Made by a program: the position numbers and the translations under genes. Of a stretch of 64,000 nt of DNA, positions 50,371 through 64,000 are shown piece after piece. The first letter of the stretch is position 1; each line of letters begins with the position of its first letter. The stretch covers positions 53,230 through 117,229 of the forward strand of contig NZFO01000012.1 of NCBI GenBank assembly GCA_002690705.1, written 5' to 3'. The notes beneath the pieces are model-generated. The model searched no databases. It was not told where the DNA came from and saw only the letters and a program-made list of their open reading frames with translations. The DNA is from Magnetovibrio sp. (GTDB taxonomy: Bacteria > Pseudomonadota > Alphaproteobacteria > Rhodospirillales > Casp-alpha2).

Positions 50371-50570
50371 AAACTAAAGTGCCTCGAAAAGAACAAAAAG
50401 AAACTAGATCATGCTTTTTCGTTTTGACAGATGGCGCGTAAAATGGCAATTGAAGTTCGTCAAAGTGAAAATAAATGATTCAGTTTGTTATGATATATGA
50501 TAAACACCTGCAAAATCGTTCGTTAATTATCGTTTTTAATTAACTATTAATCAAATGAATAGGTTTATCC

Positions 50571-50918
50571 GTGGCAAAACCTGATAGAGGCAAAAAGCAT
50601 ACCTGCCAAAACTGTGGCACTATATTTTATGACTTCAGACGCACGCCCGTTGACTGTCCCAAATGTGGTAGCCGGGTCGAAGTACAGTTGTTGCTAAAAC
50701 CCCGCCGTCCAGGCCCTCAATCCAAGTCATCTTCCCGAAAAATAGGGGTTCCAGAACCTGCTCATGTGGAAGAACCAGATAATTTGGAGGTCGAGATCGA
50801 CGAGGTCGAGGAGGAGGAAGATGATCTTATGGAGGACATGTCTGACATCGGCGACGATGATTCGGATATGTCGGAAGTAAAAGAACACATCTCCTCACCC
50901 AGCGGTGAAAAAGAGTAA
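50571..50918 (+). CDS. TIGR02300-family (FYDLN_acid) zinc-ribbon protein with acidic tail
   Basis: 115 aa with a GTG start, CQNCGTIFYDF...CPKCG, and a Glu/Asp-rich C-terminus. Confidence 0.85.
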   Translation: MAKPDRGKKHTCQNCGTIFYDFRRTPVDCPKCGSRVEVQLLLKPRRPGPQSKSSSRKIGVPEPAHVEEPDNLEVEIDEVEEEEDDLMEDMSDIGDDDSDMSEVKEHISSPSGEKE

Positions 50919-50954
50919 CATTTCGACAACGTGACAGACTATTTAGCAATTTCT

Positions 50955-50980
50955 GAACGCTAGCATCCTTGGCAGCGTTC
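50955..50980. terminator. hairpin between convergent genes (possible bidirectional terminator)
   Basis: GAACGCT (50955-50961) pairs with AGCGTTC (50974-50980) across a 12-nt loop. There is no clear T tract, so it is weak. Confidence 0.3.
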
Positions 50981-50996
50981 TCCCACGGTGGCAATT

Positions 50997-52010
50997 TTAG
51001 AACTGCATAACATCTTCTATACTTGAGTTAGCCGTCCATTTAAGAGTTAGGTCGGAGAGGCGGCTCACCATTTCGACACATTTTTCAGGGTACCGACCTA
51101 TTGCAGTTTCAGCCGCAAGCACTAACCCGTCTGCTCCCATAAGTAATGAACTCACTATATCGTTTGCTTCAGCCCGTGTGGGGGTTTCGGCCGTTACCAT
51201 AGACTCTAAGAGGTTCGTAGCAATATAGACAGGTACTCCTTGAGCTTTGGCCATGGATACTATCCGCCGCTGCAAAAAAGGGATTTTTTCAATTGGAAGT
51301 TGCCTTGAGAGATCCCCGCGGTCTATCAAAATTTCATCAGTTTCAGATAAGATTGCAGGTAAGTTAGCCAATGCTTTACGGGTTTCGATCTTAGAGATTA
51401 TCTTGGCATCTGGTCCACATAATCTCCGCATCCGCGCAACGTCATTGGCACTGCTTGCAAATGAGAGAGCAAAATGCTCTACGCCGTTCTTCAAGCCGAT
51501 ATCTATCGCCATCCTATCTTTTTTGGTAATTGCCGGCATTGTAATGTGTCGGTTTAAGCTAGCTGCTTTGTTACTGCCGACATGCCCGGCCTTTATTATC
51601 TTTGCAATACAATTATTTTTTTCACATTTCAGCACACGCAGAGCCGCCCCATTAAAGTCCAAATTAATCTCGTCCTCTACCTTGAATTTTTTAGCAATTC
51701 CAGTTGGATTAAATGAGATATTAGACGCGTCTCCAATCGTCTTGCAGAAATGGATAGTTACTTGGTCACCAGCTTTAAAATTTACGCCGTTTTTTTTCAT
51801 TTCTTGGTTACGTAGCTGCGCTCCCTCGCTATCCAAACATATGGGTACACTTGTCCAAGCCCTCAGTTTGTCAATATTATCTGCCACGTTTTCGATGGGT
51901 GTGTGTGAGAGATTTAATCGAAACAAAAAGACTCCGATATCAGCGCATTTTTGAATAACACGGGGATTTAGGGAATTCGGTCCGACAGTTACAAGAATCT
52001 TAGGGGTCAT
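50997..52010 (-). CDS. pyruvate-kinase-like protein, A/B (barrel) domains only, no C-terminal regulatory domain
   Basis: 337 aa (typical PK is ~470-480). PK-like motifs: ILVTVGP, RLNLSHT, SKIETRKA, LIDRGDLS, IATNLLESM, PTRAEANDI, ETAIGRYP. The LDTKGPEIR site is replaced by LDSEGAQLR. Confidence 0.75.
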   Translation of the reverse strand: MTPKILVTVGPNSLNPRVIQKCADIGVFLFRLNLSHTPIENVADNIDKLRAWTSVPICLDSEGAQLRNQEMKKNGVNFKAGDQVTIHFCKTIGDASNISFNPTGIAKKFKVEDEINLDFNGAALRVLKCEKNNCIAKIIKAGHVGSNKAASLNRHITMPAITKKDRMAIDIGLKNGVEHFALSFASSANDVARMRRLCGPDAKIISKIETRKALANLPAILSETDEILIDRGDLSRQLPIEKIPFLQRRIVSMAKAQGVPVYIATNLLESMVTAETPTRAEANDIVSSLLMGADGLVLAAETAIGRYPEKCVEMVSRLSDLTLKWTANSSIEDVMQF

Positions 52011-52260
52011 TCTAAATACTATCCTAATACTAATACTCTATTTTGAGCTATAAGAACGCGTCTACACTGGTATAAAGGCGCCAATACAGCAATGAGTAAA
52101 TATCGGCTTCATTTTAGTGTCAAAAACTTCAAATTTGAGTAATTAAATTGTTTTTGGGTAATTAAACTCTTAATGAGCGGCGGAACAGATTAGCCCATTT
52201 GAAATTTAGCACTCCGCTTATCAAGAACTAAAATATTTGGCCTGCAATCGTGATTTAGTC

Positions 52261-52271
52261 GGGGGGGGGGG
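52261..52271. repeat. G11 homopolymeric tract in the divergent intergenic region
   Basis: Read directly (c gggggggggggg a context: 10 G at 52261-52270 plus G at 52271). It lies 251 nt from the PK-like start and 212 nt upstream of the TTL-like start. Confidence 0.9.
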
Positions 52272-52482
52272 ACTATTGAGAGATTTTCCTTCCCGCATTT
52301 ATCGATGTGTTATAAAAAAGGGAAGAAACGGATGGGAAAGACGAGGCTTATACAGGAGCAATGCTACCGAGGACCCTCTGAAAGTTTTTAAAATCTCCAC
52401 AAGTCATTGAACTAAGATTTAAAGGGCGTAGTAACGTCTGGCAATTCCAAAGAAGACCCTAGGTAAGAAATGATCCAAGTCT

Positions 52483-53355
52483 ATGTCCACAATATACGTT
52501 TATCGCGCTCTTTTTAATCAAATATCCCAAATTCATACTTTTAAGGGTATTCCGATGCCCGGGCGTTATGTAACTGGAAATAAGGATTTTTCTGATCTGT
52601 TCATTGAATATTCTAGCGAGGGCGACATCCACAATAAAAAGTTTCTACAAAATTTTACAGGAGACTCATTTTTTCCTGAAACTTATTTTGAACTCGAAAC
52701 AACGCCAGTCGGAAGAAACTCTGAAACTTTCTTTTTAAAGAATTATCGATCAGATAATAGCGAGGATATAATAATTCTTAATGGCAGTCAGTTACCCCCC
52801 TTGGTTCCAAAATCTCATCTTTTGCAGTTAGAAATATTACCAAAACTCTACAGAGGAAAAAAATTTGATATCCGAGTATACGTTTGTGTGAGTAGAACCG
52901 GTGCCATCATGATTTATAAAAATATTTTTTACAGGATAAATCCCAACCTTTATCAGGAAGGAGAACATAAAGATCCTGAGCAATATCAATTTACAACGCC
53001 GATGGCGACAGGAGGAACTGGTAGCTTTTTCCAAAAAACTCGGCCTGGGCAATTTCCTATATCTGATTATTTAGCACAGTTAGAGATAATTATTCCAAAA
53101 ATATATAAGCGGCTGAGCCCTTTAGCTAATAGAGGGATTGCAGAGGATCTTGATTCCTCGTTCATGATAGGAGGGCTTGATTTCATTCCGTCTCGGGAAG
53201 GTGACAAACTTGTGTTCCTAGAGGTTAATGTTACGCCAGGGTGGCATATAAACTACGGACTAAAATACTATCAGGAGTTTTATCAACTCTCGACAGAGTT
53301 TATTCTTGGGCATGACAGAAATTCAGATGAATGCTTATATGCACAAGTATCCTAA
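52483..53355 (+). CDS. tubulin-tyrosine-ligase-like (TTL-family) ATP-grasp protein
   Basis: 290 aa. GKKFDIRVYVCVSRTGAIMIYKNIFYRI matches the TTL pattern (g.KFDlRiYVlvts..pl.iY.y.eG..R). FMIGGLDFIPSREGDKLVFLEVNVTPGW matches (FellGfDfliD....vWLiEVN.sPsl). Confidence 0.7.
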   Translation: MSTIYVYRALFNQISQIHTFKGIPMPGRYVTGNKDFSDLFIEYSSEGDIHNKKFLQNFTGDSFFPETYFELETTPVGRNSETFFLKNYRSDNSEDIIILNGSQLPPLVPKSHLLQLEILPKLYRGKKFDIRVYVCVSRTGAIMIYKNIFYRINPNLYQEGEHKDPEQYQFTTPMATGGTGSFFQKTRPGQFPISDYLAQLEIIIPKIYKRLSPLANRGIAEDLDSSFMIGGLDFIPSREGDKLVFLEVNVTPGWHINYGLKYYQEFYQLSTEFILGHDRNSDECLYAQVS

Positions 53356-53573
53356 TGCTAACACGTTTCTTAGACGTTCCTCGGAACATTATGCTGCTAA
53401 ATCTCATGTCAAAGAATAGCAGAATTATGCGCTAAAAACTGAAATTAAAATAACCACGGCGAAGGCCTAAAATATTGGACAGCGCCGATGTAGGAGAGGT
53501 ACATGTGGAGAATGCATGTGCATTTAGGCTTATGCCATTTGGTAATAAACATTAATCCTTTTATGCTCGTTAA

Positions 53574-53660
53574 TGGCAACTTGTTACCCAAATTGATTTT
53601 CCATCAGTATTTTTAATATCATGAGACAATTTTAAACCAAAAAAAAAGTCGCTTTTTGTT
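53574..53660 (+). repeat. 87-bp direct-repeat copy of the upstream region plus first 13 codons of the transglutaminase-fold gene (partner 58554-58640)
   Basis: Base-by-base comparison at a constant offset of 4980 bp gives 78/87 identical with no indels. The copy here has TTA->TAA in codon 5 (ATGAGACAATTTTAA). Confidence 0.85.
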
Positions 53661-53718
53661 AGACTTGCGAAAACGCCAAAATCACAGAGATGTTTGCAGA
53701 GCCTTTAGACAGAAATTC

Positions 53719-54498
53719 TCAGATGTCGCCTAACTCTCGTTCAAGCTGAAGTCGCTCATAGAAATATCGGTTATCGTCCCAGCTTTCGTTAGCTGGTGGC
53801 AATTTATCGTCCATCAGGGTTTCTTTTATGCGTAACAGGGTGTCAGAAACCCAGTCAGAGTTCCCAATGTAAGGGATGAGGGTTGTCTTGAACTCCATAA
53901 AGCCAACGTCCTCATAGCCTTGATGGTCAGAATAGAAGTCGTTATCGCCCTTGATACCGTTCACATAGAGAAAATATCCCAAATCAGAGACGGGAAATTC
54001 TCTCTTACGGAATAGCCATTGGTAGACTTCCATCTGTCGCTTGTATCCAGAACCCCAACCGCTCTCGATATCTGGGTCACCTTGTTTCGAGGTCGACTTG
54101 TAATCAACGATATAGAGTTCTTTGGAGTTGATATCTTCCCATACGTCATCGACAGCCCCAAACACCTCAAGGTTGGTTGCCTCGTCTAAATAACGGATAC
54201 CTTTGAAGTTGTTTCTCCAATCCTCAATTTCGGGATGTTGATATGGGATAACCTCAAGATTGAATTTCTCAAAGATTGGGTGTTCTGAGGATTGCTTCTC
54301 TCGGTAGCCATCAAACTCATTCTTGAGGAGATGGTCAGTAGCCACAGCAAGGGTAAGAGGAACCATTGATGGGGGTTTGAGACCGAACTTTCTCTGAAGG
54401 ACAAAGGTCCTTGGGCAGCGAAGGAACTGGTCTATCCCTGAACGGGATATGGGAAACGGGTCATCCCTATTTTTATCGAATTTATTATATCTCGCCAT
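53719..54498 (-). CDS. Cas4/RecB-like PD-(D/E)XK nuclease (no C-terminal Cys cluster)
   Basis: 259 aa with N-terminal SGIDQFLRCPRTF, motif II GAVDDV, motif III LYIVDYKS (D-x-K), and the QxxxY motif (RQMEVYQWL). Confidence 0.78.
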   Translation of the reverse strand: MARYNKFDKNRDDPFPISRSGIDQFLRCPRTFVLQRKFGLKPPSMVPLTLAVATDHLLKNEFDGYREKQSSEHPIFEKFNLEVIPYQHPEIEDWRNNFKGIRYLDEATNLEVFGAVDDVWEDINSKELYIVDYKSTSKQGDPDIESGWGSGYKRQMEVYQWLFRKREFPVSDLGYFLYVNGIKGDNDFYSDHQGYEDVGFMEFKTTLIPYIGNSDWVSDTLLRIKETLMDDKLPPANESWDDNRYFYERLQLERELGDI

Positions 54499-57264: not shown

Positions 57265-57475
57265 GGGATAACCTCAAGGTTGATTTTCTCAAAGATTGGG
57301 TGTTCTGAGAATTGCTTCTACCGGCAGCCATCAAACTCATTCTTAAAAAGATGGTCAGTAGTCAGGGCAAGTGCAAGAATAACCATCGATGGGGGTGTAA
57401 GGCCGAACTTCCCCCGAAGAATAAAGGCTCTTGGACACTCTCCCAGAGGGAACCGTAAGAGACGGACTATCCAAG
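57265..57475 (-). pseudogene. fragment paralogous to the N-terminus of the PD-(D/E)XK nuclease gene (original 54245-54440)
   Basis: Hand translation CPRAFILRGKFGLTPPSMVILALALTTDHLFKNEFDGCR-TAG-KQFSEHPIFEKINLEVIP, compared with CPRTFVLQRKFGLKPPSMVPLTLAVATDHLLKNEFDGYREKQSSEHPIFEKFNLEVIP. Confidence 0.75.
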
Positions 57476-58132
57476 GTCTTAGCCAAGAGTGAGCCTTTAG
57501 GGAAACTCATAGCCGTCGACACAGCCGAGTTGATTGAGAGAACAACCCACATAGGCAATATCGGACCCAGACAACAGGTAACCGCTTCCCAGATGAGCAA
57601 GTTCGAGAATGCTATCTTGGGCTTTGGGAGACTAAGAATTAAATATCGAACAACAGGTAAGGCAAAAGCGTCGTGGCGAGAGGTTGAACCTCTTGGGCTT
57701 CTATTTGGTCGATTTGGTTATCTCGTGGCGAACCTATCCAAGACCGCAATGAAACCCCTCACCTACCGTCTCGACCTCATCGAGGATGTTGAGGATTTGC
57801 GAGAGATGTTCGAGGAACCCAAAAATTTTGATTTTAAAGAATGGGCAAAAGAGAGTTTTGGAATTTTTCACGGCGATGAATTGCTGGATATAAAACTTCG
57901 TTTTACGGGAGAAGCGGCAAAACGAGCCGAAAAAATCTCGTTTCATCCATCTCAAAAGATGAGCAAGGGACGAGGTGGCTCAACCATCATTGAATTGAGG
58001 TGTAGAGGTCATCGAGAACTCATCCACGAACTTTGCCACCCAGACTGGGTTGGGCAATTAGCTATTGAAAAACCAGACGAATTCCGTGCATCGTATTTCG
58101 AGTATGTAAAAGAGTTGGGAGAACTATCCTGA
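57431..58132 (+). CDS. WYL-domain protein lacking the N-terminal HTH (WYL + WCX domains only; TTG start; possibly a pseudogene)
   Basis: 233 aa with a WYL-type core (GRLRIKYRT...REVEPLGLLFGRFGYLVA...YRLDLIEDVE), then a C-terminal extension (IKLRFTGEAAKRAEKISFHPSQK...IIELRC...). The 5' end abuts and overlaps the nuclease-fragment junction. Confidence 0.7.
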   Translation: MDTLPEGTVRDGLSKVLAKSEPLGKLIAVDTAELIERTTHIGNIGPRQQVTASQMSKFENAILGFGRLRIKYRTTGKAKASWREVEPLGLLFGRFGYLVANLSKTAMKPLTYRLDLIEDVEDLREMFEEPKNFDFKEWAKESFGIFHGDELLDIKLRFTGEAAKRAEKISFHPSQKMSKGRGGSTIIELRCRGHRELIHELCHPDWVGQLAIEKPDEFRASYFEYVKELGELS

Positions 58133-58283
58133 CTTTGCTTTTCCGCAACTTGTCGATATATTGGCGAAATTACGCAAGAAAAAGGGAGAAATTTGCGTTT
58201 ATTGTTGAGAAATTCCCGACAATCTTTTGACAATCTTTTTTTGGTGTTTTCAAGAGTATCGTAAGTCATTGATTTTATTAGTT
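58133..58283 (+). repeat. copy D of the recurring intergenic module (tandem 11-mers GACAATCTTTT x2 at 58218-58239; TTGATTTTATT at 58269-58279)
   Basis: Read directly. It lies immediately after the WYL gene stop, as does copy A. Confidence 0.7.
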
Positions 58284-58321
<38 letters not shown>

Positions 58322-58385
58322 AAGATAGCTCTCCAGCCCTTCATTTGCGTTCAGCCTAATTTAATCAATTAATAGAGTTCTTTAC

Positions 58386-58416
58386 AGTCGCAGAAATCTG
58401 CGACTTCCTTTTTTTA
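58386..58416 (+). terminator. rho-independent terminator
   Basis: The AGTCGCAG-AAAT-CTGCGACT hairpin (58386-58405) is followed by TCCTTTTTTT. Confidence 0.8.
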
Positions 58417-58417
58417 T

Positions 58418-58439
58418 GGACAAGTTTTGGACAAGTTCT
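58418..58439 (+). repeat. tandem 11-mers GGACAAGTTTT / GGACAAGTTCT
   Basis: Read directly. They are related to the GACAATCTTTT pair 200 nt upstream. Confidence 0.8.
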
Positions 58440-58600
58440 GTTTTTATGGTATCTTATCGGTATGGCAAAATGCCGTCCCCTTCTCGATACCTATGAAGCA
58501 GTTGTTGAAAGCAGAGTTTGGTTTCACAAGCAACGGAACAATGGTAAGACCTCTGGCAACTTGTCGCCAAAATTGATTTTCCATCAGTATTTCTAATATC

Positions 58601-59563
58601 ATGAGACAATTTTTAACCAAAAGAAAAGTCGCTTTATTTGCAATTGGTGTAATTGCTATGAGCCTCCATTTTAAGTGGTCATCTTTTGTTAATGTTGTCG
58701 ATTACCTTTTTATGAACGGCCCTTATCTCAGCCGAACGCTTATTTATTCAGCAGAAGTTTTTGGACCCGCGAGCCGAGAACTTGCCGAAATTATTTATAA
58801 AAACCAGTACGAGGATAGGCACTGGTATAGGGTCAACTTGAGGAAAGCTAACGCCGCACTTAGGTCAAAAACAGGAATAGAGGCAAAAGTTATCAAAAAC
58901 TTTCAAATATTCATAAAAGCTTATTTAAAAATAAGAGACTCCTATCAAGGGGCCGACGCAATAACCGAGGATGTGGCAGTCAAAAAAGTAGTCGCTTTAG
59001 TTAATAAGTTCTATCAAAAGCACAAAAGAGCGAGTGTACCGCATGATCCTCAGACCTTTTTGAATTGGCCATTCCATGGTGAGAACCATTTAATTAAAGT
59101 TGCAGCTACCACAACCGCATGCGGCATAACCGCTGAGGCAACGTTAACATTACTGCGTGATCTCGGATTTCAGACTAGATTACTTGGCGTTGCTAATTCG
59201 GCGGAAAAGATTGTCTTCAATCACGTTTTGCTCGAGTACTATTCCAATCAACACAAGAAATGGATCATGCTTGACCCAATGGTGGGCGACATAGCAGGGA
59301 ACTCTGAGGCTTCACTGAGCGCGATTGAGATGATCCAATCTGTGCAAGCTCGTCAGAAGCTAAATGAAAAATGGAGTCAAAACGGGAATAGCCCGCTTGG
59401 CAAGGTTAACTTCAACCCGGTCTATAAATCTGAATCGATTATATTTTTTTCCCGCGATTTAGGGCCATTCAAAGAAACTTTTTATTACGCTAATAGTGAG
59501 CGGATAAGAGAAAGGGTAAAAGAACGAGTGTCCCAGATGCGCTTTCGACCAGAATGGCTATGA
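58601..59563 (+). CDS. transglutaminase-fold (Cys-His-Asp) protein with N-terminal membrane anchor
   Basis: 320 aa with an N-terminal TM (VALFAIGVIAMSL) and a core pattern TTACGITAEATLTLLRDLGFQTRLLGV...NHVLLEYY...KWIMLDP, equivalent to C...H...D of transglutaminase-like cysteine peptidases. Confidence 0.65.
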   Translation: MRQFLTKRKVALFAIGVIAMSLHFKWSSFVNVVDYLFMNGPYLSRTLIYSAEVFGPASRELAEIIYKNQYEDRHWYRVNLRKANAALRSKTGIEAKVIKNFQIFIKAYLKIRDSYQGADAITEDVAVKKVVALVNKFYQKHKRASVPHDPQTFLNWPFHGENHLIKVAATTTACGITAEATLTLLRDLGFQTRLLGVANSAEKIVFNHVLLEYYSNQHKKWIMLDPMVGDIAGNSEASLSAIEMIQSVQARQKLNEKWSQNGNSPLGKVNFNPVYKSESIIFFSRDLGPFKETFYYANSERIRERVKERVSQMRFRPEWL

Positions 59564-59619
59564 TAACGTGCTAAAAAATTAACGACTTTATCATTCTATT
59601 GAAAGAGGTGGCTGCCTCA

Positions 59620-59978
59620 CGTATATCCTCTCGTCTGCTCATCAAATTGAGTTCATGGGGTCGAGAAACTTTAAATTTAAAAAGTGGGCGAAACCGGGTT
59701 TTAGATTTTTTCTCTGGGCCAAGCTATTGGAAATAAAACTTCGTTTTACGGGCGAAGGCTCAAAAAGAGCCAAAAAAATTTCATTTCATCCATCTCAAAA
59801 GATGAGCAAGGGACGAGGTGGCTCAACTATCATTGAATTGAGATGTAGAGGTCATAGAGAACTCATTCACGAACTATGTAGACCAGAGTGGGTCGGGCAG
59901 TTAGTCATTGAGAAACCAGAGGAGTTTCGGACAAAATATTTTGAGTATTTAGATGAATGTGCGAAAGCTATCGCTTAA
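59620..59978 (+). pseudogene. 5'-truncated second copy of the WYL gene (end of WYL domain + WCX domain)
   Basis: Track ORF 59655..59978: ...NFKFKKWAK...IKLRFTGEGSKRAKKISFHPSQKMSKGRGGSTIIELRCRGHRELIHELCRPEWVGQLVIEKPEEFR, compared with copy 1 residues ~135-225. Nucleotide similarity is traceable back to about 59620 (LTYIL vs LTYRL). It starts 57 nt after the upstream gene stop. Confidence 0.75.
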
Positions 59979-60188
59979 TATGAGGGACGATTGAAAAATC
60001 AAAGTGATGACAAGTTCGAACAGGAACGACAGAAAGCCTAGGGCGAGGATACATCCCACAATGCACTCTACGTCAAAGTCACGTCAAAGTAAAACTAAAG
60101 CGTTGATTTTATTTATGAAATCGCTCTGGGACGATTGAGTGGGAGTGATTTATTTATTGTTTAATATCAATAGGTTAGGCGTTTTTTT
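59972..60188 (+). repeat. copy A (full length) of the recurring intergenic module
   Basis: 5' block CTTAATATGAGGGACGATTG (59974-59993); distal site AATCAAAGTGA (59997-60007); tandem ACGTCAAAGTC/ACGTCAAAGTA (60070-60091); TTGATTTTATT (60103-60113); GAGTGGGAG (60137-60145). Confidence 0.85.
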
Positions 60189-61097
60189 ATGAATGATATG
60201 ATCGAATTCAAGAAATGGATGGAGTTAAGTACCGATCTGTCGGAAAAGTCGATGAAGAATTACGCTGGTGGAGTAAAGAAAATTGAGGCAGATCTTCTGG
60301 AACTCGATCTGACTAACCAAAATCTTTTTGAAATAACTAGTCCAGATGATTTGACGCATTTAAAAAGTCAATATTTTCAGATTTCAGAGAATAAGGAATT
60401 AGATGAACGAGGCAAAGGTATGTACAGCGCTGCGTTCAACAAATTAATAGAGTTTAGAACAGACCAAGGTTCAACTCCCCTCTCCGACGAAGGAATTGTT
60501 TACATACTCTCGAACCCTGCAATGCCTGGATTAGTTAAAATTGGCAAAACAAACAATTTACAAAATCGACTCAATAGTCTGTTCAGCACAGGTGTTCCTA
60601 TCCCATTTCGATGTGTATATGCAAAAAGAGTAAAAAATTATTCAAAAGTAGAGTCTAAACTTCATAACGGTTTAAGAAGTATGCGAGAAAATCCAAATCG
60701 TGAATTTTTTCGAATAGCAGAAGATGAAGTAATTAATTTTCTGGAAATGGTTGAAGGGGAAGACATCACCCCAAGAGAAGATCGATTTGAAGATAAAGAG
60801 GACGAAGTTGCTTTCGAGAGAGCAACGAGAATTGGACAGAGATTTAACTTTGAAATGGTGGGCATCAAAATTGGATCAATGCTTCATTTTATTCGCGACG
60901 AAAATATCACCTGTAAAGTCATATCAAAAAATAAGGTTGAATTTGAAGGAAGCGAGCATTCACTCTCGAGCGCCGGTTTGATCGCAACTAATAGATTTGG
61001 TTTCAATTGGAAGAGCGTTGCTGGACCACTTAATTGGAAATTTGAAGGAGAAATATTAGACGAAAGAAGAAAGAGATATGAAAGCGGTGATGAGTAG
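60189..61097 (+). CDS. T5orf172-type GIY-YIG domain protein with extra N- and C-terminal domains
   Basis: 302 aa. The central region GIVYILSNPAMPGLVKIGKTNNLQNRLNSL...PIPF...ESKLHNGL...NREFFRI fits the T5orf172/MUG113 pattern. The C-terminal ~90 aa (SLSSAGLIA...GPLNWKFEGEIL) resemble the small domain capping GIY-YIG proteins in R-M loci (inference). Confidence 0.78.
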   Translation: MNDMIEFKKWMELSTDLSEKSMKNYAGGVKKIEADLLELDLTNQNLFEITSPDDLTHLKSQYFQISENKELDERGKGMYSAAFNKLIEFRTDQGSTPLSDEGIVYILSNPAMPGLVKIGKTNNLQNRLNSLFSTGVPIPFRCVYAKRVKNYSKVESKLHNGLRSMRENPNREFFRIAEDEVINFLEMVEGEDITPREDRFEDKEDEVAFERATRIGQRFNFEMVGIKIGSMLHFIRDENITCKVISKNKVEFEGSEHSLSSAGLIATNRFGFNWKSVAGPLNWKFEGEILDERRKRYESGDE

Positions 61098-61210
61098 TTT
61101 CTTTATTGATTTGCTATAATCCACCAGAGTTTCAAAGCAGTTTCAAAGTAAAACCAAACTATTGATTTTATTGAATAAAATAGGGTATTTTTATTGAGTG
61201 GGAATAATCC
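61098..61210 (+). repeat. copy B (5'-truncated) of the recurring intergenic module
   Basis: Tandem AGTTTCAAAGC/AGTTTCAAAGT (61128-61149); TTGATTTTATT (61162-61172); GAGTGGGAA (61196-61204). Confidence 0.8.
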
Positions 61211-61325
61211 AAAAAATTTTATTAGGGTGATATGCGAAATGCTGAAATTCAATTTTTTTAAAACACTGATGTTCTCATCAATGTTATTAAAAATATGCTG
61301 TGCGCCACAGTTCGGAGAATAACTA

Positions 61326-61922
61326 ATGGCAACAATAAAAGCCACAAATCCAGTAAACGACTACAAACAAGAAATTTCTGAATTGAGTTGGTTGTGGAGT
61401 TTGATTTTTGGCGCATTCTTTTTTGCGTTTAAGGGGGCGTGGAAGCACTTCATTATTGGTATTATTGCGGCCATAGTTACGGTCGGAATTAGCTGGTTAA
61501 TTTATCCATTCTTCGCACGTCAAATAATTATTAACTCCTATCTTGAAAGAGGTTGGTCTATTGATGGCTTGCCTCAAATAGAGATGCCTGACGGTAAGTT
61601 CCAAGCCAGTTCTATAAAAAGCTCAAAAACGGCACCTTTACTTTTTCTCGCATCATTTGCTCTTTGGCTCATGGTCTCTTCTTACTTTGGCTTAATCTTG
61701 CTTTATGCCTTCGAATTGGATTATGAGCAAATAGTCCCAATCCAGGCACTTGCGTGGACGGTACTAGGACCGTTTATAATAATTGTCTTTGATATTTATC
61801 CCTCGATCAAAACTGGAGCTTTTTTAGCCTACACCACTGGAGCCGTCTCGCTGATAGTCCACTCTCTATTGCTTTGGTTCGCATATGGCGTATTCAAAAA
61901 CAGTCGGCAAAATAAAGATTAA
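61326..61922 (+). CDS. DUF2628-like multi-pass membrane protein
   Basis: 198 aa. The N-terminal WLWSLIFGAFFFAFKGAWKHFIIGII...YPFFARQIIINSYLERGW resembles DUF2628. Three further TM helices follow. Confidence 0.6.
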   Translation: MATIKATNPVNDYKQEISELSWLWSLIFGAFFFAFKGAWKHFIIGIIAAIVTVGISWLIYPFFARQIIINSYLERGWSIDGLPQIEMPDGKFQASSIKSSKTAPLLFLASFALWLMVSSYFGLILLYAFELDYEQIVPIQALAWTVLGPFIIIVFDIYPSIKTGAFLAYTTGAVSLIVHSLLLWFAYGVFKNSRQNKD

Positions 61923-62046
61923 TATATAAAGGGTAAATTAGGCACATATACGCTTAACCTCAGTAGCAGAGAAAACTGTATTCTTTGCCGTAGCGTACCA
62001 AGCCTTGAATAACTCCCTCACAACCCGGTCATGGGACTTTTGATTA

Positions 62047-62080
62047 CCAGATACGGATTTTCGTCTACGCAGTCTTCTGG
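62047..62080. repeat. 34-nt repeat, copy 1 (partner 63717-63750)
   Basis: CCAGATACGGATTTTCGTCTACGCAGTCTTCTGG vs CCAGATATGGGTTTTCTTCTGCGCAGACGTCTGG, 28/34 identical. The ends are inverted (CCAGA...TCTGG). Confidence 0.7.
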
Positions 62081-62134
62081 CTTCTCTAACCAGTTGAGAA
62101 CCGAGTTCTAAATAAGATTTTCGCCCCCCCACGT

Positions 62135-63331
62135 TTAAATTGTCCTCGCTGATCGCGCCGCAAGAGTAAGAGCTATGGCCCCTGATAGACCAATAATTGC
62201 AGTGGTGACAATCAATAAATGGTAGCCGCCGATACTCCAGATCATCCCGGCAATCGATGGGGCGATAGCCATCGAAAACAAAAATGGGACGGCAAGAAAT
62301 CCAGCAACGACGCCAAACCGACGACGCCCAAGAAGTTCCGCAATTAAGATTGGACGCACAATGCTCGCAACCCCAAAACCGGCTCCTTGAAACAGCACAA
62401 ATAGGATTAAGAACACCATTCCGGACCCAACGCCGAACAACATTAGCGTGGCAAAAGCCATCGAGAGAAAGGCCGCTGTTGCTACCGCAACAACCTGAAC
62501 CCGCCCTTCAAATGCGATCATTGCCAGTCGCCCAGATACCTGCATTGGCCCAATCATAGCCGCTGCAAAAACTGCCATTTCAGAATGAACGCCTCTCTCG
62601 TCTAACAAAACTAACAAATGTGATAGAATAGCGTTATGATCGAATGCCATCGCAGCGAATGCAAAGCCAAGGAGCACCAAAGTACGCAGGGTTACAGGGT
62701 TTAAATTCTGCCCAGTATTTTGGGCGGGCGGTTCTGGTGGGGCCGGATTTGCAGTCTGTGCTTGGGACACAGCATATAAATTTAAAGGTGCAGAAATCAG
62801 ACCTATTAGAATGGCAAATGTCAAAATAACACCTCTCCAACCAATTTCTTCGATCAGAGCGTGAGCGGTTGGAAAGGCAATAGTACCGGCAAATCCAGCA
62901 AGAAGCGTAACCAGCGTTATTGATTGAGGCGCCCGTTTTCCCATGTGGAGAGTTAAAATTGCAAAGCATGGTTCGTAAAGACTGCCCGCCATAACCACCC
63001 CTAAACTCGCCCAGACGAGATAGAAATGCCAAAGCTCTGTCACAAATGATAAGGCCCCCAATAACACTGCGGTGACTAGTGTTGCTGTTGGAAATAAAAT
63101 TTGGCTGCGACCTTTATCAATCTGTTTGCCTACGAACGGAGCTAAGAACGCCGATAGCAGTAAGGCGGTTGTAAAAGCGCCGGCGGCCTCCGCTTTTGAC
63201 CATCCAAGGTCACGTTCCCATTCGCCTAACAATGATGGGAAAAGGTAAAAAGCCCCGGCCCATAGGAATGTCTGAGCGATGGCTAAGGGCCAAACTATAC
63301 GCTTAAACTTTGTTCGGTGACTAGACACCAT
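62135..63331 (-). CDS. MFS transporter
   Basis: 398 aa with 12 predicted TM helices. It is visibly GC-richer than its flanks. Confidence 0.85.
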   Translation of the reverse strand: MVSSHRTKFKRIVWPLAIAQTFLWAGAFYLFPSLLGEWERDLGWSKAEAAGAFTTALLLSAFLAPFVGKQIDKGRSQILFPTATLVTAVLLGALSFVTELWHFYLVWASLGVVMAGSLYEPCFAILTLHMGKRAPQSITLVTLLAGFAGTIAFPTAHALIEEIGWRGVILTFAILIGLISAPLNLYAVSQAQTANPAPPEPPAQNTGQNLNPVTLRTLVLLGFAFAAMAFDHNAILSHLLVLLDERGVHSEMAVFAAAMIGPMQVSGRLAMIAFEGRVQVVAVATAAFLSMAFATLMLFGVGSGMVFLILFVLFQGAGFGVASIVRPILIAELLGRRRFGVVAGFLAVPFLFSMAIAPSIAGMIWSIGGYHLLIVTTAIIGLSGAIALTLAARSARTI

Positions 63332-63716
63332 AATCAGAGAGCTTTACTACCCTTTAATATCCGCGGTTTTCATACCGAATAATATCGTATGTTCTTTGGT
63401 TATAAATTTAGTTTAGCTTTCTAACGCTAAGATTCTTAGTAAACAGGTGTGGACTACAAACAACGGCTATTTAACCATTTGGAGATACGAAAAATGTCGT
63501 GTTTACAATGACCATGCTGATTTTAAGGTTTAGTTGTGTTCATCTACCTTAATTCAAAAAAAAAATCAATTTTGTCTGTAATCACATGATAACGTTTTAA
63601 CTAAGCTTATTCACTCTCAATAATAAACAGTAAAGATTCGAAACAAGAACAGACGAACACTTAAAATCAAAATTGTACCAGTTTAATGTTCTACCCAATC
63701 AAAGTTATTTTACTCC

Positions 63717-63750
63717 CCAGATATGGGTTTTCTTCTGCGCAGACGTCTGG
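63717..63750. repeat. 34-nt repeat, copy 2
   Basis: See 62047-62080. It lies 53 nt upstream of module copy C. Confidence 0.7.
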
Positions 63751-63803
63751 TTGTCTTTGCCAATCATCGTTTTCAATATCACCTTCCACCATGATCAAAC
63801 CTC

Positions 63804-64000
63804 TCGCTTAATATGAGGAACGATTGTAACGTTGAACTCTTGATAGGGTGTAAGTTAAGCCACACAAAACCAAAGGCAGATTTCCAGCGAAATGGCAGCC
63901 AGCGTCGAAGTAGCGTCGAACTAAAAATACGATATTGAGTCTATTGGTGAATTAGGTCGGGTTTTATCGAGTGGGAGTAAAATATAAAAAATAAAATATT
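63804..64000 (+). repeat. copy C of the recurring intergenic module (cut by the window edge)
   Basis: 5' block CTTAATATGAGGAACGATTG (63807-63826); distal site AACGTTGAACT (63828-63838); tandem AGCGTCGAAGT/AGCGTCGAACT (63901-63922); TTGAGTCTATT (63935-63945); GAGTGGGAG (63969-63977). Confidence 0.85.

What the first reader, a model, noticed from the sequence alone, without database searches (positions are those of the whole stretch)
50997..53355. Divergent pair: C-domain-less pyruvate-kinase-like enzyme and a bacterial TTL-like ATP-grasp (ancestrally with a transglutaminase-fold partner)
The PK-like ORF is only 337 aa. It keeps most catalytic-site motifs (SKIE, DRGDL, ATNLLESM, PTRAE) but lacks the whole C-terminal domain and has LDSEGAQLR where LDTKGPEIR is expected.

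The divergently transcribed 290-aa protein has the two diagnostic TTL-family blocks (KFDIRVYV...IYKN.FYRI and LDFIP....VFLEVNVTPGW).

ATP-grasp amidoligases are known from comparative genomics to pair with transglutaminase-fold peptidases in predicted peptide ligation/removal systems. The duplicated gene start at 53574-53660 ties this TTL-like gene to the transglutaminase-fold gene at 58601. A phosphotransferase + TTL-like ligase + Cys-protease-fold trio is not a system I can name.
Basis: partly seen in the sequence, partly recalled or inferred. Interest (0 to 1): 0.6.

Follow-up and report, generated by a model that had tools for sequence, protein, structure and literature searches.

The report
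Chance neighbours: short kinase, orphan ligase
Two real but unrelated accessory genes sit back to back at the edge of a mosaic island: a short pyruvate-kinase paralogue that elsewhere partners the sulfate-activating enzymes, and a rare, mobile bacterial relative of tubulin-tyrosine ligase. They do not form the proposed three-gene system.

Summary

**Pyruvate-kinase-like gene.** 50997-52010(-) is a 337-aa pyruvate-kinase barrel with no C domain. All PK catalytic residues are present.

**TTL-like gene.** 52483-53355(+) is a 290-aa ATP-grasp enzyme. Its confident model (pLDDT 90.8) matches TTLL6 and TTL best, and its family profile hits only TTL/TTLL chains in the PDB.

**The proposed PK + TTL (+ transglutaminase) system is not supported.**
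- The short PK belongs to a large marine family. In 14 of 16 other contexts it lies beside an APS kinase, or is fused or adjacent to an ATP sulfurylase, often among sulfotransferase and polysaccharide genes. It is never beside a TTL-like gene.
- This scan has already reported the PK/sulfate-activation link on other DNA in at least 61 genomes.
- The TTL-like gene belongs to a very rare family: 30 representatives among 1.8 billion proteins, none in 60 relatives, none in 400 genomes of the class.
- In eight other contexts it is a solitary, usually AT-rich insertion. These include housekeeping loci, an IS-flanked patch, a Rep3 plasmid-type contig and a giant-virus MAG. None has a PK-like or transglutaminase-like neighbour.
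- The 83-bp copy of the transglutaminase-fold gene start after the TTL-like gene is real. It reflects cassette shuffling in this island, not a conserved partnership.

Interest is modest.

The parts
50997..52010 (-). 337-aa pyruvate-kinase paralogue with A and B domains and no C domain. It belongs to the short 'LD[ST]EGAQ[IL]R' subfamily that is normally linked to APS kinase or ATP sulfurylase. Here it is an orphan at the left edge of the island.
   Evidence: Pfam PF00224 scores 3.3e-62. TIGR01064 scores 249.6 bits, below its 306.4 cut-off. The catalytic residues R31, N33, S35, D60, R67, K207, E209, D233, T278 and E301 are invariant with the genome's canonical PK.
52011..52482 (.). 472-nt divergent intergenic region. 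It holds a G11 tract at 52261-52271 whose length differs (10, 11 or 12 G) between otherwise 99.7-99.9% identical metagenome contigs.
   Evidence: Sequence; tract lengths. No Rfam family was found. Promoter-like sites are not above chance.
52483..53355 (+). 290-aa solitary TTL-family ATP-grasp ligase ('mini-TTL'). Its GC is 0.37 in a genome of 0.465.
   Evidence: Pfam TTL scores above its cut-off. The AF2 model has pLDDT 90.8. Foldseek best hits are TTLL6/TTL in the PDB and giant-virus TTL proteins in BFVD. The profile search of the PDB hits only TTL/TTLL. K86, Q115, K127, D129, R131, D233, E247 and N249 are conserved.
53574..53658 (+). Dead copy of the upstream region and first codons of the transglutaminase-fold gene. 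The fifth codon is TAA.
   Evidence: Repeat D4 is 93% identical to 58554-58635. The alignment shows sharp boundaries.
58554..59563 (+). Native upstream region plus a 320-aa membrane-anchored protein with a probable transglutaminase-like Cys-His-Asp core. It is a separate cassette of the island, not a conserved partner of the TTL-like gene.
   Evidence: Transglut_core scores below threshold at E 0.0099. C174, H208 and D225 are invariant. Fold hits are weak but consistent. Homologue P0038 lies in a polysaccharide cluster with no TTL gene.

Best explanation
The two genes are independent accessory genes brought together by the mosaic, low-GC island that starts right after the conserved aroA / FYDLN-acid genes.

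**(1) The 337-aa protein is a catalytically complete, non-allosteric pyruvate-kinase paralogue.** It belongs to a large marine family whose conserved partners are the sulfate-activating enzymes. It most likely uses phosphoenolpyruvate to turn ADP back into ATP for PAPS synthesis that feeds sulfotransferases. This step is inferred. In this genome it has lost that linkage: the partner-type APS kinase lies on another contig.

**(2) The 290-aa protein is a solitary, horizontally mobile member of the TTL family.** By analogy with TTL, TTLL and RimK, it should activate a carboxylate of a protein (a C-terminus or a Glu side chain) as an acyl-phosphate and ligate an amino acid to it. This is inferred, and the target and the amino acid are unknown. 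It needs no conserved neighbour.

**(3) The 83-bp fragment of the transglutaminase-fold gene start downstream of the TTL-like gene is a recombination scar.** It comes from cassette shuffling in the island and is not the trace of an operon.
For: **PK-like gene.**
- In 16 contexts outside the window, an APS kinase (PF01583, 4e-30 for the G003 neighbour) is directly adjacent in 8. A PUA_2 + ATP-sulfurylase is fused in 5 and adjacent in 1. Neither is seen in 2.
- The surroundings hold TPR-Sulfotransfer_3 proteins, a sulfatase, and FkbH, MBOAT, ALGX and sugar-nucleotide genes.
- PK catalytic residues are all kept.
- The family is large. The 120 best hits listed are all 324-356 aa and 52-75% identical, apart from the window's own protein.
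- The window's own genome keeps a partner-type APS kinase, 55% identical to G003's, at C7:148369-148812 among unrelated genes.

**TTL-like gene.**
- The fold and profile assign it to TTL/TTLL.
- Only 30 representatives were found in 1.84 billion proteins. None was found in 60 relatives or in 400 genomes of the class. One locus was found in 185,579 species' genomes.
- Its contexts are all different and lack PK-like and TGase-like genes:
  - a 4-kb AT-rich insert (L001);
  - an IS-flanked patch with an FkbM methyltransferase and a TPR-GT41 protein (L028);
  - a contig with a Rep3 replication protein (L048);
  - between GAPDH/rhodanese and RecJ (L058);
  - beside a Mur ligase (L051);
  - a giant-virus MAG with NAD-ligase and glycosyltransferases (L027).
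- DNA homology to L001 is confined to 52543-53342. No conserved flanking small ORF was found.
- Gene GC is below host GC in the window, L001, L028 and L058.

**Island.** It is mosaic, with repeated cassette boundaries and candidate defence genes (T5orf172/PDC-S57 at 1e-68, WYL, Cas4-like).
Against: - The pair is stably adjacent and divergently arranged in every contig of this population that reaches far enough, from four different samples. They share a 472-nt intergenic region with a variable poly-G tract, so co-regulation in this lineage cannot be excluded.
- Both enzymes handle ATP/ADP, so a helper role of the PK for the ligase is chemically conceivable.
- No biochemical function of either family has been tested. 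I found no paper describing either.
- Most contigs of TTL-like relatives are short, so the context sample is small (8 contexts).
Confidence: 0.8

Rival explanations
1. The PK-like phosphotransferase, the TTL-like ligase and (ancestrally) the transglutaminase-fold peptidase form one peptide ligation/removal system.
For: The arrangement is divergent and stable in this population. The copy of the transglutaminase gene start 219 nt after the TTL stop shows that the two were probably once adjacent on the same strand. From my own knowledge of Iyer et al. 2009 (not in the held library), ATP-grasp plus transglutaminase-fold pairs are known from comparative genomics.
Against: 0 of 8 TTL-like contexts and 0 of 16 PK-like contexts show the pairing. 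The transglutaminase-like homologue sits in a polysaccharide cluster. The PK-like gene has a different, strongly conserved partner set (APS kinase / ATP sulfurylase). The three genes differ in GC: 0.435, 0.371 and 0.413.
Confidence: 0.05
2. This is a lineage-specific new pairing. After losing its APS-kinase neighbour, the ATP-regenerating PK paralogue was captured as a helper that recycles the ADP made by the ATP-grasp ligase. The two are co-regulated from the shared, possibly phase-variable, intergenic region.
For: ATP-grasp ligases release ADP, which is the PK substrate (established enzymology). The two genes share a 472-nt promoter region with a G10-G12 tract that varies between assemblies. 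Both genes are intact and near-identical in several samples.
Against: There is no evolutionary conservation, since only a single population has the pair. The cell has a canonical PK for bulk ATP regeneration. Poly-G variation may be an assembly error. No expression data are available.
Confidence: 0.07
3. The TTL-like gene is a conflict gene. It could be an anti-phage or anti-plasmid defence or counter-defence enzyme. It could instead be an effector that tags a eukaryotic (grazer or algal) protein such as tubulin. In either case it was acquired by exchange with giant viruses. This reading concerns what the ligase does and is compatible with the two genes being unrelated.
For: The gene is solitary, patchy and AT-rich in islands, on a Rep3 contig and in a giant-virus MAG. 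Its best viral structural matches are about 300-aa TTL-family proteins of CroV and Marseillevirus. Giant-virus TTL homologues form deep viral clades (PMC11915834). The island carries candidate defence genes.
Against: There are no PADLOC or PHROG hits for the protein. Nothing marks it as secreted, though no signal-peptide predictor was run. The bacterial copies form their own clade with only moderate support, 87/99. The direction of transfer is unknown.
Confidence: 0.2

Closest known systems
Tubulin-tyrosine ligase and TTLL glutamylases (PDB 3tig/4i4t TTL, 6vzt TTLL6, 4ylr TTLL7)
   Same: It has the same ATP-grasp fold, and these are the best structural and profile matches. The nucleotide/Mg and acyl-phosphate residues are conserved: K86, Q115, K127-F-D129-x-R131, D233, E247-x-N249.
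   Different: It is 290 aa against 377 to over 450 aa. It occurs in bacteria that have no tubulin. Sequence identity is 15-18%. There is no microtubule-binding extension. Substrate and added residue are unknown.
Giant-virus TTL-family proteins of about 300 aa (e.g. CroV E3T579, Marseillevirus LCMAC102 A0A481YUU2)
   Same: They are similar in size and are the best BFVD fold matches (E 2e-14). One relative of the window's family lies on a giant-virus MAG contig.
   Different: The window's protein falls in a small bacterial clade with five other members, among them an Erythrobacter MAG, a Rep3 plasmid-type contig and marine metagenome contigs. The viral proteins are likewise uncharacterised.
RimK (ribosomal protein S6 poly-glutamate ligase) and YheC/D ATP-grasps
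   Same: RimK is a stand-alone bacterial ATP-grasp that tags a protein C-terminus, the nearest bacterial functional analogy. There is a weak YheCD Pfam hit at E 0.002.
   Different: The family profile found no RimK chain in the PDB at E <= 0.01. There is no S6-type context.
Pyruvate-kinase / ATP-sulfurylase (/APS-kinase) fusions and PK-APS kinase operons
   Same: The window's PK-like protein is 45-49% identical to the PK part of five such fusions. It is 51-69% identical to short PKs that sit beside an APS kinase. It shares the LD[ST]EGAQ[IL]R signature. The scan reported the fusions in at least 61 other genomes.
   Different: In the window, neither APS kinase nor ATP sulfurylase is adjacent. 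The genome has no Sat-type sulfurylase, and its partner-type APS kinase is on another contig.
Canonical bacterial pyruvate kinase (TIGR01064) and the short Bacillus-type PK (NCBIfam PRK06739)
   Same: It has the PK barrel with the B domain and all catalytic residues.
   Different: It has no C-terminal allosteric/tetramerisation domain. It scores below the equivalog cut-offs. It has K-to-E, P-to-A and E-to-Q changes in the LDTKGPEIR motif.
ATP-grasp amidoligase + transglutaminase-fold peptidase systems (Iyer, Abhiman, Burroughs & Aravind 2009; cited from my own knowledge, the paper is not in the held library)
   Same: An ATP-grasp gene and a probable transglutaminase-fold gene lie in one island and were probably once adjacent.
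   Different: The pairing is not conserved in any relative of either gene.

Membership tests
TTL family (Pfam PF03133) | Match to the family HMM above the gathering score | tested here: met
   It scores 28.6 bits against a cut-off of 20.1, E 1.1e-6. The match is partial (residues 72-165). The profile of 15 family members hits TTL at 2.2e-14 and only TTL/TTLL/PBY1 chains.
TTL family (Pfam PF03133) | ATP-grasp fold closest to TTL/TTLL | tested here: met
   The AF2 model has pLDDT 90.8. All 50 best PDB matches are TTLL6, TTLL11 or TTL chains, with E from 6e-15 and TMq about 0.64-0.72.
TTL family (Pfam PF03133) | Complete ATP/Mg2+ and acyl-phosphate site (Lys in the central domain, KFDxR, D...ExN) | tested here: met
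   K86, K127, D129, R131, D233, E247 and N249 are invariant or nearly so in the family. They align with the TTL motifs WIAK, KFDIR, GFDFM and IEVN.
TTL family (Pfam PF03133) | Ligation of an amino acid to tubulin or another protein carboxylate | not testable with these tools
   This needs biochemistry. The host has no tubulin other than, presumably, FtsZ.
Pyruvate kinase (TIGR01064 equivalog) | Whole-protein score above the equivalog cut-off | tested here: not met
   It scores 249.6 bits against a cut-off of 306.4. All seven PK models are below their cut-offs.
Pyruvate kinase (TIGR01064 equivalog) | Barrel domain with catalytic Arg, Lys, Glu, Asp and Thr | tested here: met
   PF00224 scores 3.3e-62. 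R31, N33, S35, D60, R67, K207, E209, D233, T278 and E301 are invariant with the genome's canonical PK.
Pyruvate kinase (TIGR01064 equivalog) | C-terminal alpha/beta (allosteric) domain | tested here: not met
   The protein ends 25 residues after the barrel match, and no C-domain hit is found.
PAPS-linked short PK subfamily (undescribed; defined here and in earlier scan reports) | Subfamily signature and 45-75% identity to members | tested here: met
   The LDSEGAQLR motif is shared. Identity is 69% to G003, 64% to L052 and 47% to the G032 fusion.
PAPS-linked short PK subfamily (undescribed; defined here and in earlier scan reports) | Adjacent or fused APS kinase / ATP sulfurylase | tested here: not met
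   Downstream lies only 78 nt and then the convergent FYDLN-acid gene. The partner-type APS kinase is on contig C7. The feature is met in 14 of 16 other contexts.
ATP-grasp + transglutaminase-fold peptide ligation/removal systems | Conserved co-localisation of the two genes | tested here: not met
   None of 8 TTL-like contexts holds a relative of the window's transglutaminase-like protein (tblastn in six loci, gene tables or ORFs in the others). The transglutaminase-like homologue L040 has no TTL gene.
Transglutaminase-like superfamily (PF01841), for 58601-59563 | HMM match above the gathering score | tested here: not met
   It scores 16.6 bits against a cut-off of 23, E 0.0099. Rad4 scores 14.9 against 27.
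Transglutaminase-like superfamily (PF01841), for 58601-59563 | Cys-His-Asp triad on helix start + two strands; fold | tested here: inconclusive
   C174, H208 and D225 are invariant and sit on H173-187, E208-215 and E220-225 of the model. The model has pLDDT 56.7, and the best fold hit is TG2 at E 0.01.

The most novel reading that the evidence does not exclude
The solitary 'mini-TTL' clade is a horizontally mobile protein-tagging enzyme shared between giant viruses and a few marine bacteria and plasmids. It acts in a biological conflict, for example by adding an amino acid to a phage, plasmid or eukaryotic (tubulin-type) target. That would be the first TTL-family enzyme with a function in or from bacteria.
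Probability: 0.15. Interest if true: 0.65.

Novelty: new member of a known kind. Interest (0 to 1): 0.3.

Why it matters
The report removes a false lead. The attractive 'phosphotransferase + ligase + protease' trio is an accident of island assembly.

It adds one more data point for the apparently undescribed family of regulatory-domain-less pyruvate kinases dedicated to sulfate activation. Here the kinase is in an unusual unlinked state, which shows that it can persist apart from its partners.

It also defines a very rare, mobile bacterial clade of the tubulin-tyrosine-ligase family. The clade has a confident model and an intact active site, and it is a small, tractable target. If its substrate were found, it would show what a TTL-type protein tag does outside eukaryotes.

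Tried and rejected
- **Scan of genome contigs with the 15-sequence alignment.** It failed because no stretch was conserved enough. I repeated it with 8 sequences.
- **Conserved small ORF or substrate peptide next to TTL-like genes.** A tblastx of all flanks found none.
- **Shared mobile unit around the TTL-like gene.** DNA homology with L001 ends at the CDS edges.
- **Circularity of the Rep3 contig L048.** It is not shown. L049 runs 222 nt past its end without wrapping.
- **Rfam families in 50400-53800.** Only a chance snoRNA hit at E 0.27.
- **Promoter and terminator scan.** Nothing above the shuffled background.
- **PADLOC and PHROGs for the PK-like, TTL-like and transglutaminase-like proteins.** No meaningful hits.
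- **Structure of the transglutaminase-like protein.** The model was too poor (pLDDT 56.7) for a firm fold assignment. The profile search of the PDB found nothing.
- **Literature on PK-sulfurylase fusions and on bacterial TTL homologues.** No paper on either was found in the held library.
- **dN/dS.** Not computed, because synonymous sites are saturated at 69% nucleotide identity.
Full report
**1. What is there**

The window up to about 50980 is a conserved alphaproteobacterial housekeeping array: rpsA, cmk, aroA and the FYDLN-acid zinc-ribbon gene. After it, GC falls from about 0.465 to 0.41 and the genes become accessory. The first two genes of this island are the finding.

ORF 50997-52010(-) encodes 337 aa.
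- It matches the Pfam pyruvate-kinase barrel over residues 4-312 (3.3e-62), and nothing follows the barrel.
- All NCBIfam PK models score below their cut-offs. They include the 352-position short-PK model PRK06739.
- I aligned it with the genome's own canonical 471-aa PK on contig C8. Every catalytic residue is kept: R31, N33, S35, D60, R67, K207, E209, D233, T278 and E301.
- The LDTKGPEIR motif reads LDSEGAQLR.

ORF 52483-53355(+) encodes 290 aa.
- It passes the Pfam TTL gathering score: 28.6 against 20.1 bits.
- An AlphaFold2 model built on 15 family members is confident, with pLDDT 90.8 and pTM 0.90.
- All 50 best PDB matches are TTLL6, TTL or TTLL11, with E from 6e-15 and TM about 0.7.
- Its best viral matches are about 300-aa TTL-family proteins of CroV and Marseillevirus.
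- A profile of the family finds only TTL, TTLL6/7/11, PBY1 and one further chain (5vlq) in the PDB, best E 2e-14, and no RimK-type chain.
- The ATP-grasp nucleotide/Mg/acyl-phosphate residues (K86, Q115, K127, D129, R131, D233, E247, N249) are conserved across the family.
- The homologues' N-termini align with M1. The 290-aa start is therefore right, and the 266-aa start used by gene callers is probably 24 codons short.

**2. The PK-like gene has a different, strongly conserved partner**

I searched 60 relatives. All but two, incomplete, ones have a canonical PK at 30-35% identity. A dozen also have an orthologue of the short form at 45-69% identity.
- In five genomes this orthologue is the N-terminal part of a 724-776-aa protein. 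In the G032 example, the C-terminal part is PUA_2 + ATP-sulfurylase, with Pfam scores of 2e-39 and 5.5e-64.
- In G005 the sulfurylase is adjacent.
- In G003, G006, G011, G016 and G024 a 170-191-aa APS kinase abuts the short PK (PF01583, 4e-30 for the G003 neighbour).
- Three metagenome contigs carrying 58-64%-identical short PKs show PK -> APS kinase. In two of them a Sulfotransfer_3 gene follows. All three lie inside clusters with cytidylyltransferase and GFO/IDH oxidoreductase genes, plus FkbH, MBOAT and ALGX in two and radical-SAM genes in the third.
- Around the G032 fusion lie several TPR proteins, two of which were confirmed as TPR-sulfotransferases. Beside the G041 fusion lies a sulfatase.

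The tally is 14 of 16 contexts with a sulfate-activating enzyme fused or adjacent. None of the 16 has a TTL-like gene.

The family is large. The 120 best database hits listed are all 324-356 aa and 52-75% identical, apart from the window's own protein.

Earlier reports of this scan described the same PK/sulfurylase/APS-kinase link on other DNA in at least 61 genomes. My results were obtained independently and agree with them.

The most likely role is inferred, not shown: local regeneration of ATP from ADP with PEP, which pulls PAPS synthesis.

In the window the gene is an orphan.
- Only 78 nt separate it from the convergent FYDLN gene.
- The genome has no Sat-type sulfurylase.
- It has five APS-kinase-domain genes. 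The one of the partner type (55% identical to G003's) sits on contig C7 among cobalamin and unrelated genes.

**3. The TTL-like gene is a rare, solitary, mobile gene**
- The word-based search found three relatives in 5.8 billion clusters.
- The exhaustive HMMER search found 30 representatives at E <= 1e-3 in 1.84 billion proteins.
- It was not found in 60 relatives or in 400 genomes drawn across the class.
- Pattern scans found one locus in 185,579 species' genomes, an Erythrobacter MAG. They also found one locus in IMG/VR, a giant-virus MAG, and eight in JGI metagenomes.

The contexts with usable flanks are all different:

| Locus | Identity to the window's protein | Context |
|---|---|---|
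| L001 | 68% | About 4-kb AT-rich insert (gene GC 0.36, flanks 0.54) between a CN-hydrolase gene and thiolase/CoA-transferase genes |
| L028 | 49% | Between IS630, IS605 and relaxase genes, followed by an FkbM methyltransferase and a TPR-GT41 glycosyltransferase |
| L058 | 45% | Alone between GAPDH/rhodanese and RecJ/GlpX; gene GC 0.33 against 0.40 |
| L048 | 36% | Contig with a Rep3 plasmid initiator |
| L051 | 32% | Beside a Mur ligase |
| L047 | 38% | Beside a metallophosphatase; GC 0.26 |
| L056 | 55% | 2.7-kb contig with about 1 kb of flank; tblastn finds no PK-like or transglutaminase-like relative |
| L027 | partial match | Giant-virus MAG contig of GC 0.21, with NAD-dependent DNA ligase and multi-domain glycosyltransferases |

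- tblastn with the window's PK-like and transglutaminase-like proteins finds nothing in any of the six of these loci that were searched: L001, L027, L028, L056, L058 and also L057. The gene tables of L047, L048 and L051 list neither.
- DNA similarity between the window and L001 is confined to 52543-53342, inside the CDS.
- No flanking small ORF is shared between loci.
- In a maximum-likelihood tree the window's protein groups with five others, including the Erythrobacter and Rep3-contig members (support 87/99). The AT-rich, probably viral members lie outside this group.
- Giant-virus TTL homologues are known to form deep viral clades (PMC11915834).

**4. The transglutaminase link**

The 83-85-nt stretch 53574-53658 is a copy of the upstream region and first 12 codons of the gene at 58601. 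It is 93% identical, has sharp edges, and has a stop at codon 5. The TTL-like gene and that gene were therefore probably once neighbours.

The same island has other duplicated cassette edges.
- The 5' part of the PD-(D/E)XK nuclease gene recurs at 57265-57437.
- The 3' end of the WYL gene recurs after the transglutaminase-like gene.
- An earlier follow-up read 57431-64000 as an array of integrase-less cassettes. Adjacency in such an array says little about function.

The transglutaminase-like family itself is small, with five homologues beyond the window's own protein. It has an invariant Cys-His-Asp. The one homologue with context lies in a polysaccharide-biosynthesis cluster with no TTL gene. 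Its fold assignment remains plausible but unproven.

**5. Verdict**

That criterion is met.

The best-supported reading (confidence 0.8) is two unrelated accessory genes:
- a PAPS-type ATP-regenerating PK paralogue that has been separated from its partners;
- a solitary mobile mini-TTL ligase that should tag a protein carboxylate with an amino acid, target unknown.

What cannot be excluded:
- a lineage-specific co-option of the PK as ADP recycler for the ligase (0.07);
- the original trio (0.05);
- for the ligase's role, a conflict or effector function (0.2).

**6. Novelty and interest**

The pair is not a system. The PK-like gene belongs to a family already flagged repeatedly by this scan. 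The TTL-like gene is a new bacterial member of a known enzyme family. It is remarkable mainly for its rarity, its mobility and its kinship with giant-virus proteins. Interest is 0.3.

Noticed in passing
window 52261-52271: There is a poly-G tract (G11) in the divergent intergenic region. In otherwise 99.7-99.9% identical metagenome contigs it is G10 (L006), G11 (L007, L008, L010) or G12 (L009). This may be slipped-strand phase variation, or a homopolymer assembly error.
   Followed up: partly
G000:C16, C4, C7, C5, C17 (loci L041-L045): The window's genome has five APS-kinase-domain genes but no Sat-type ATP sulfurylase. The copy at C7:148369-148812 is the type that normally sits beside the short PK, yet here it lies among cobalamin genes and DUF938.
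   Followed up: partly
L034 (G032:C28:11500-31400): The PK-PUA-ATP-sulfurylase fusion is surrounded by at least six paralogous about 600-790-aa TPR proteins. Two of three tested carry a Sulfotransfer_3 domain. A further TPR protein may carry a methyltransferase, judged by eye only. This looks like a large battery of probable sulfotransferases fed by one PAPS module.
   Followed up: partly
window 60189-61097: The T5orf172/GIY-YIG protein matches the PADLOC candidate defence family PDC-S57 at 1e-68. The WYL and Cas4-like PD-(D/E)XK genes nearby also hit defence-associated models, so the island has a defence-island flavour.
   Followed up: no
window 57265-57437 vs 54245-54417: A 173-nt fragment, 84% identical to the 5' part of the PD-(D/E)XK nuclease gene, lies on the minus strand and abuts the start of the WYL gene. 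It is a second recombination scar in the island.
   Followed up: partly
L048 (Logan SRR4191757 contig, 3816 nt): A 36%-identical TTL-like gene is the largest cargo on a contig with a Rep3 plasmid initiator, an HTH protein and a small PEGA-domain ORF. Circularity could not be shown.
   Followed up: partly
L028:8978-11856 (Erythrobacter MAG): The TTL-like gene is followed by an FkbM-type methyltransferase and a TPR-GT41 (O-GlcNAc-transferase-like) protein. The patch is bounded by IS elements and a relaxase, and may be a protein-modification patch.
   Followed up: no
window 52483 vs 52555: Public gene calls start the TTL-like protein at M25 (266 aa, P0001). All homologues align from M1, and the model's first strand and helix (residues 3-19) are confident, so the 290-aa form is the likely product.
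   Followed up: yes
L012 (G000:C8), canonical PK: The genome's canonical PK reads LDLQGPKIR, with Lys at the position of rabbit-muscle Glu117. From my own knowledge, this marks K+-independent pyruvate kinases. The short paralogue has Gln there.
   Followed up: no
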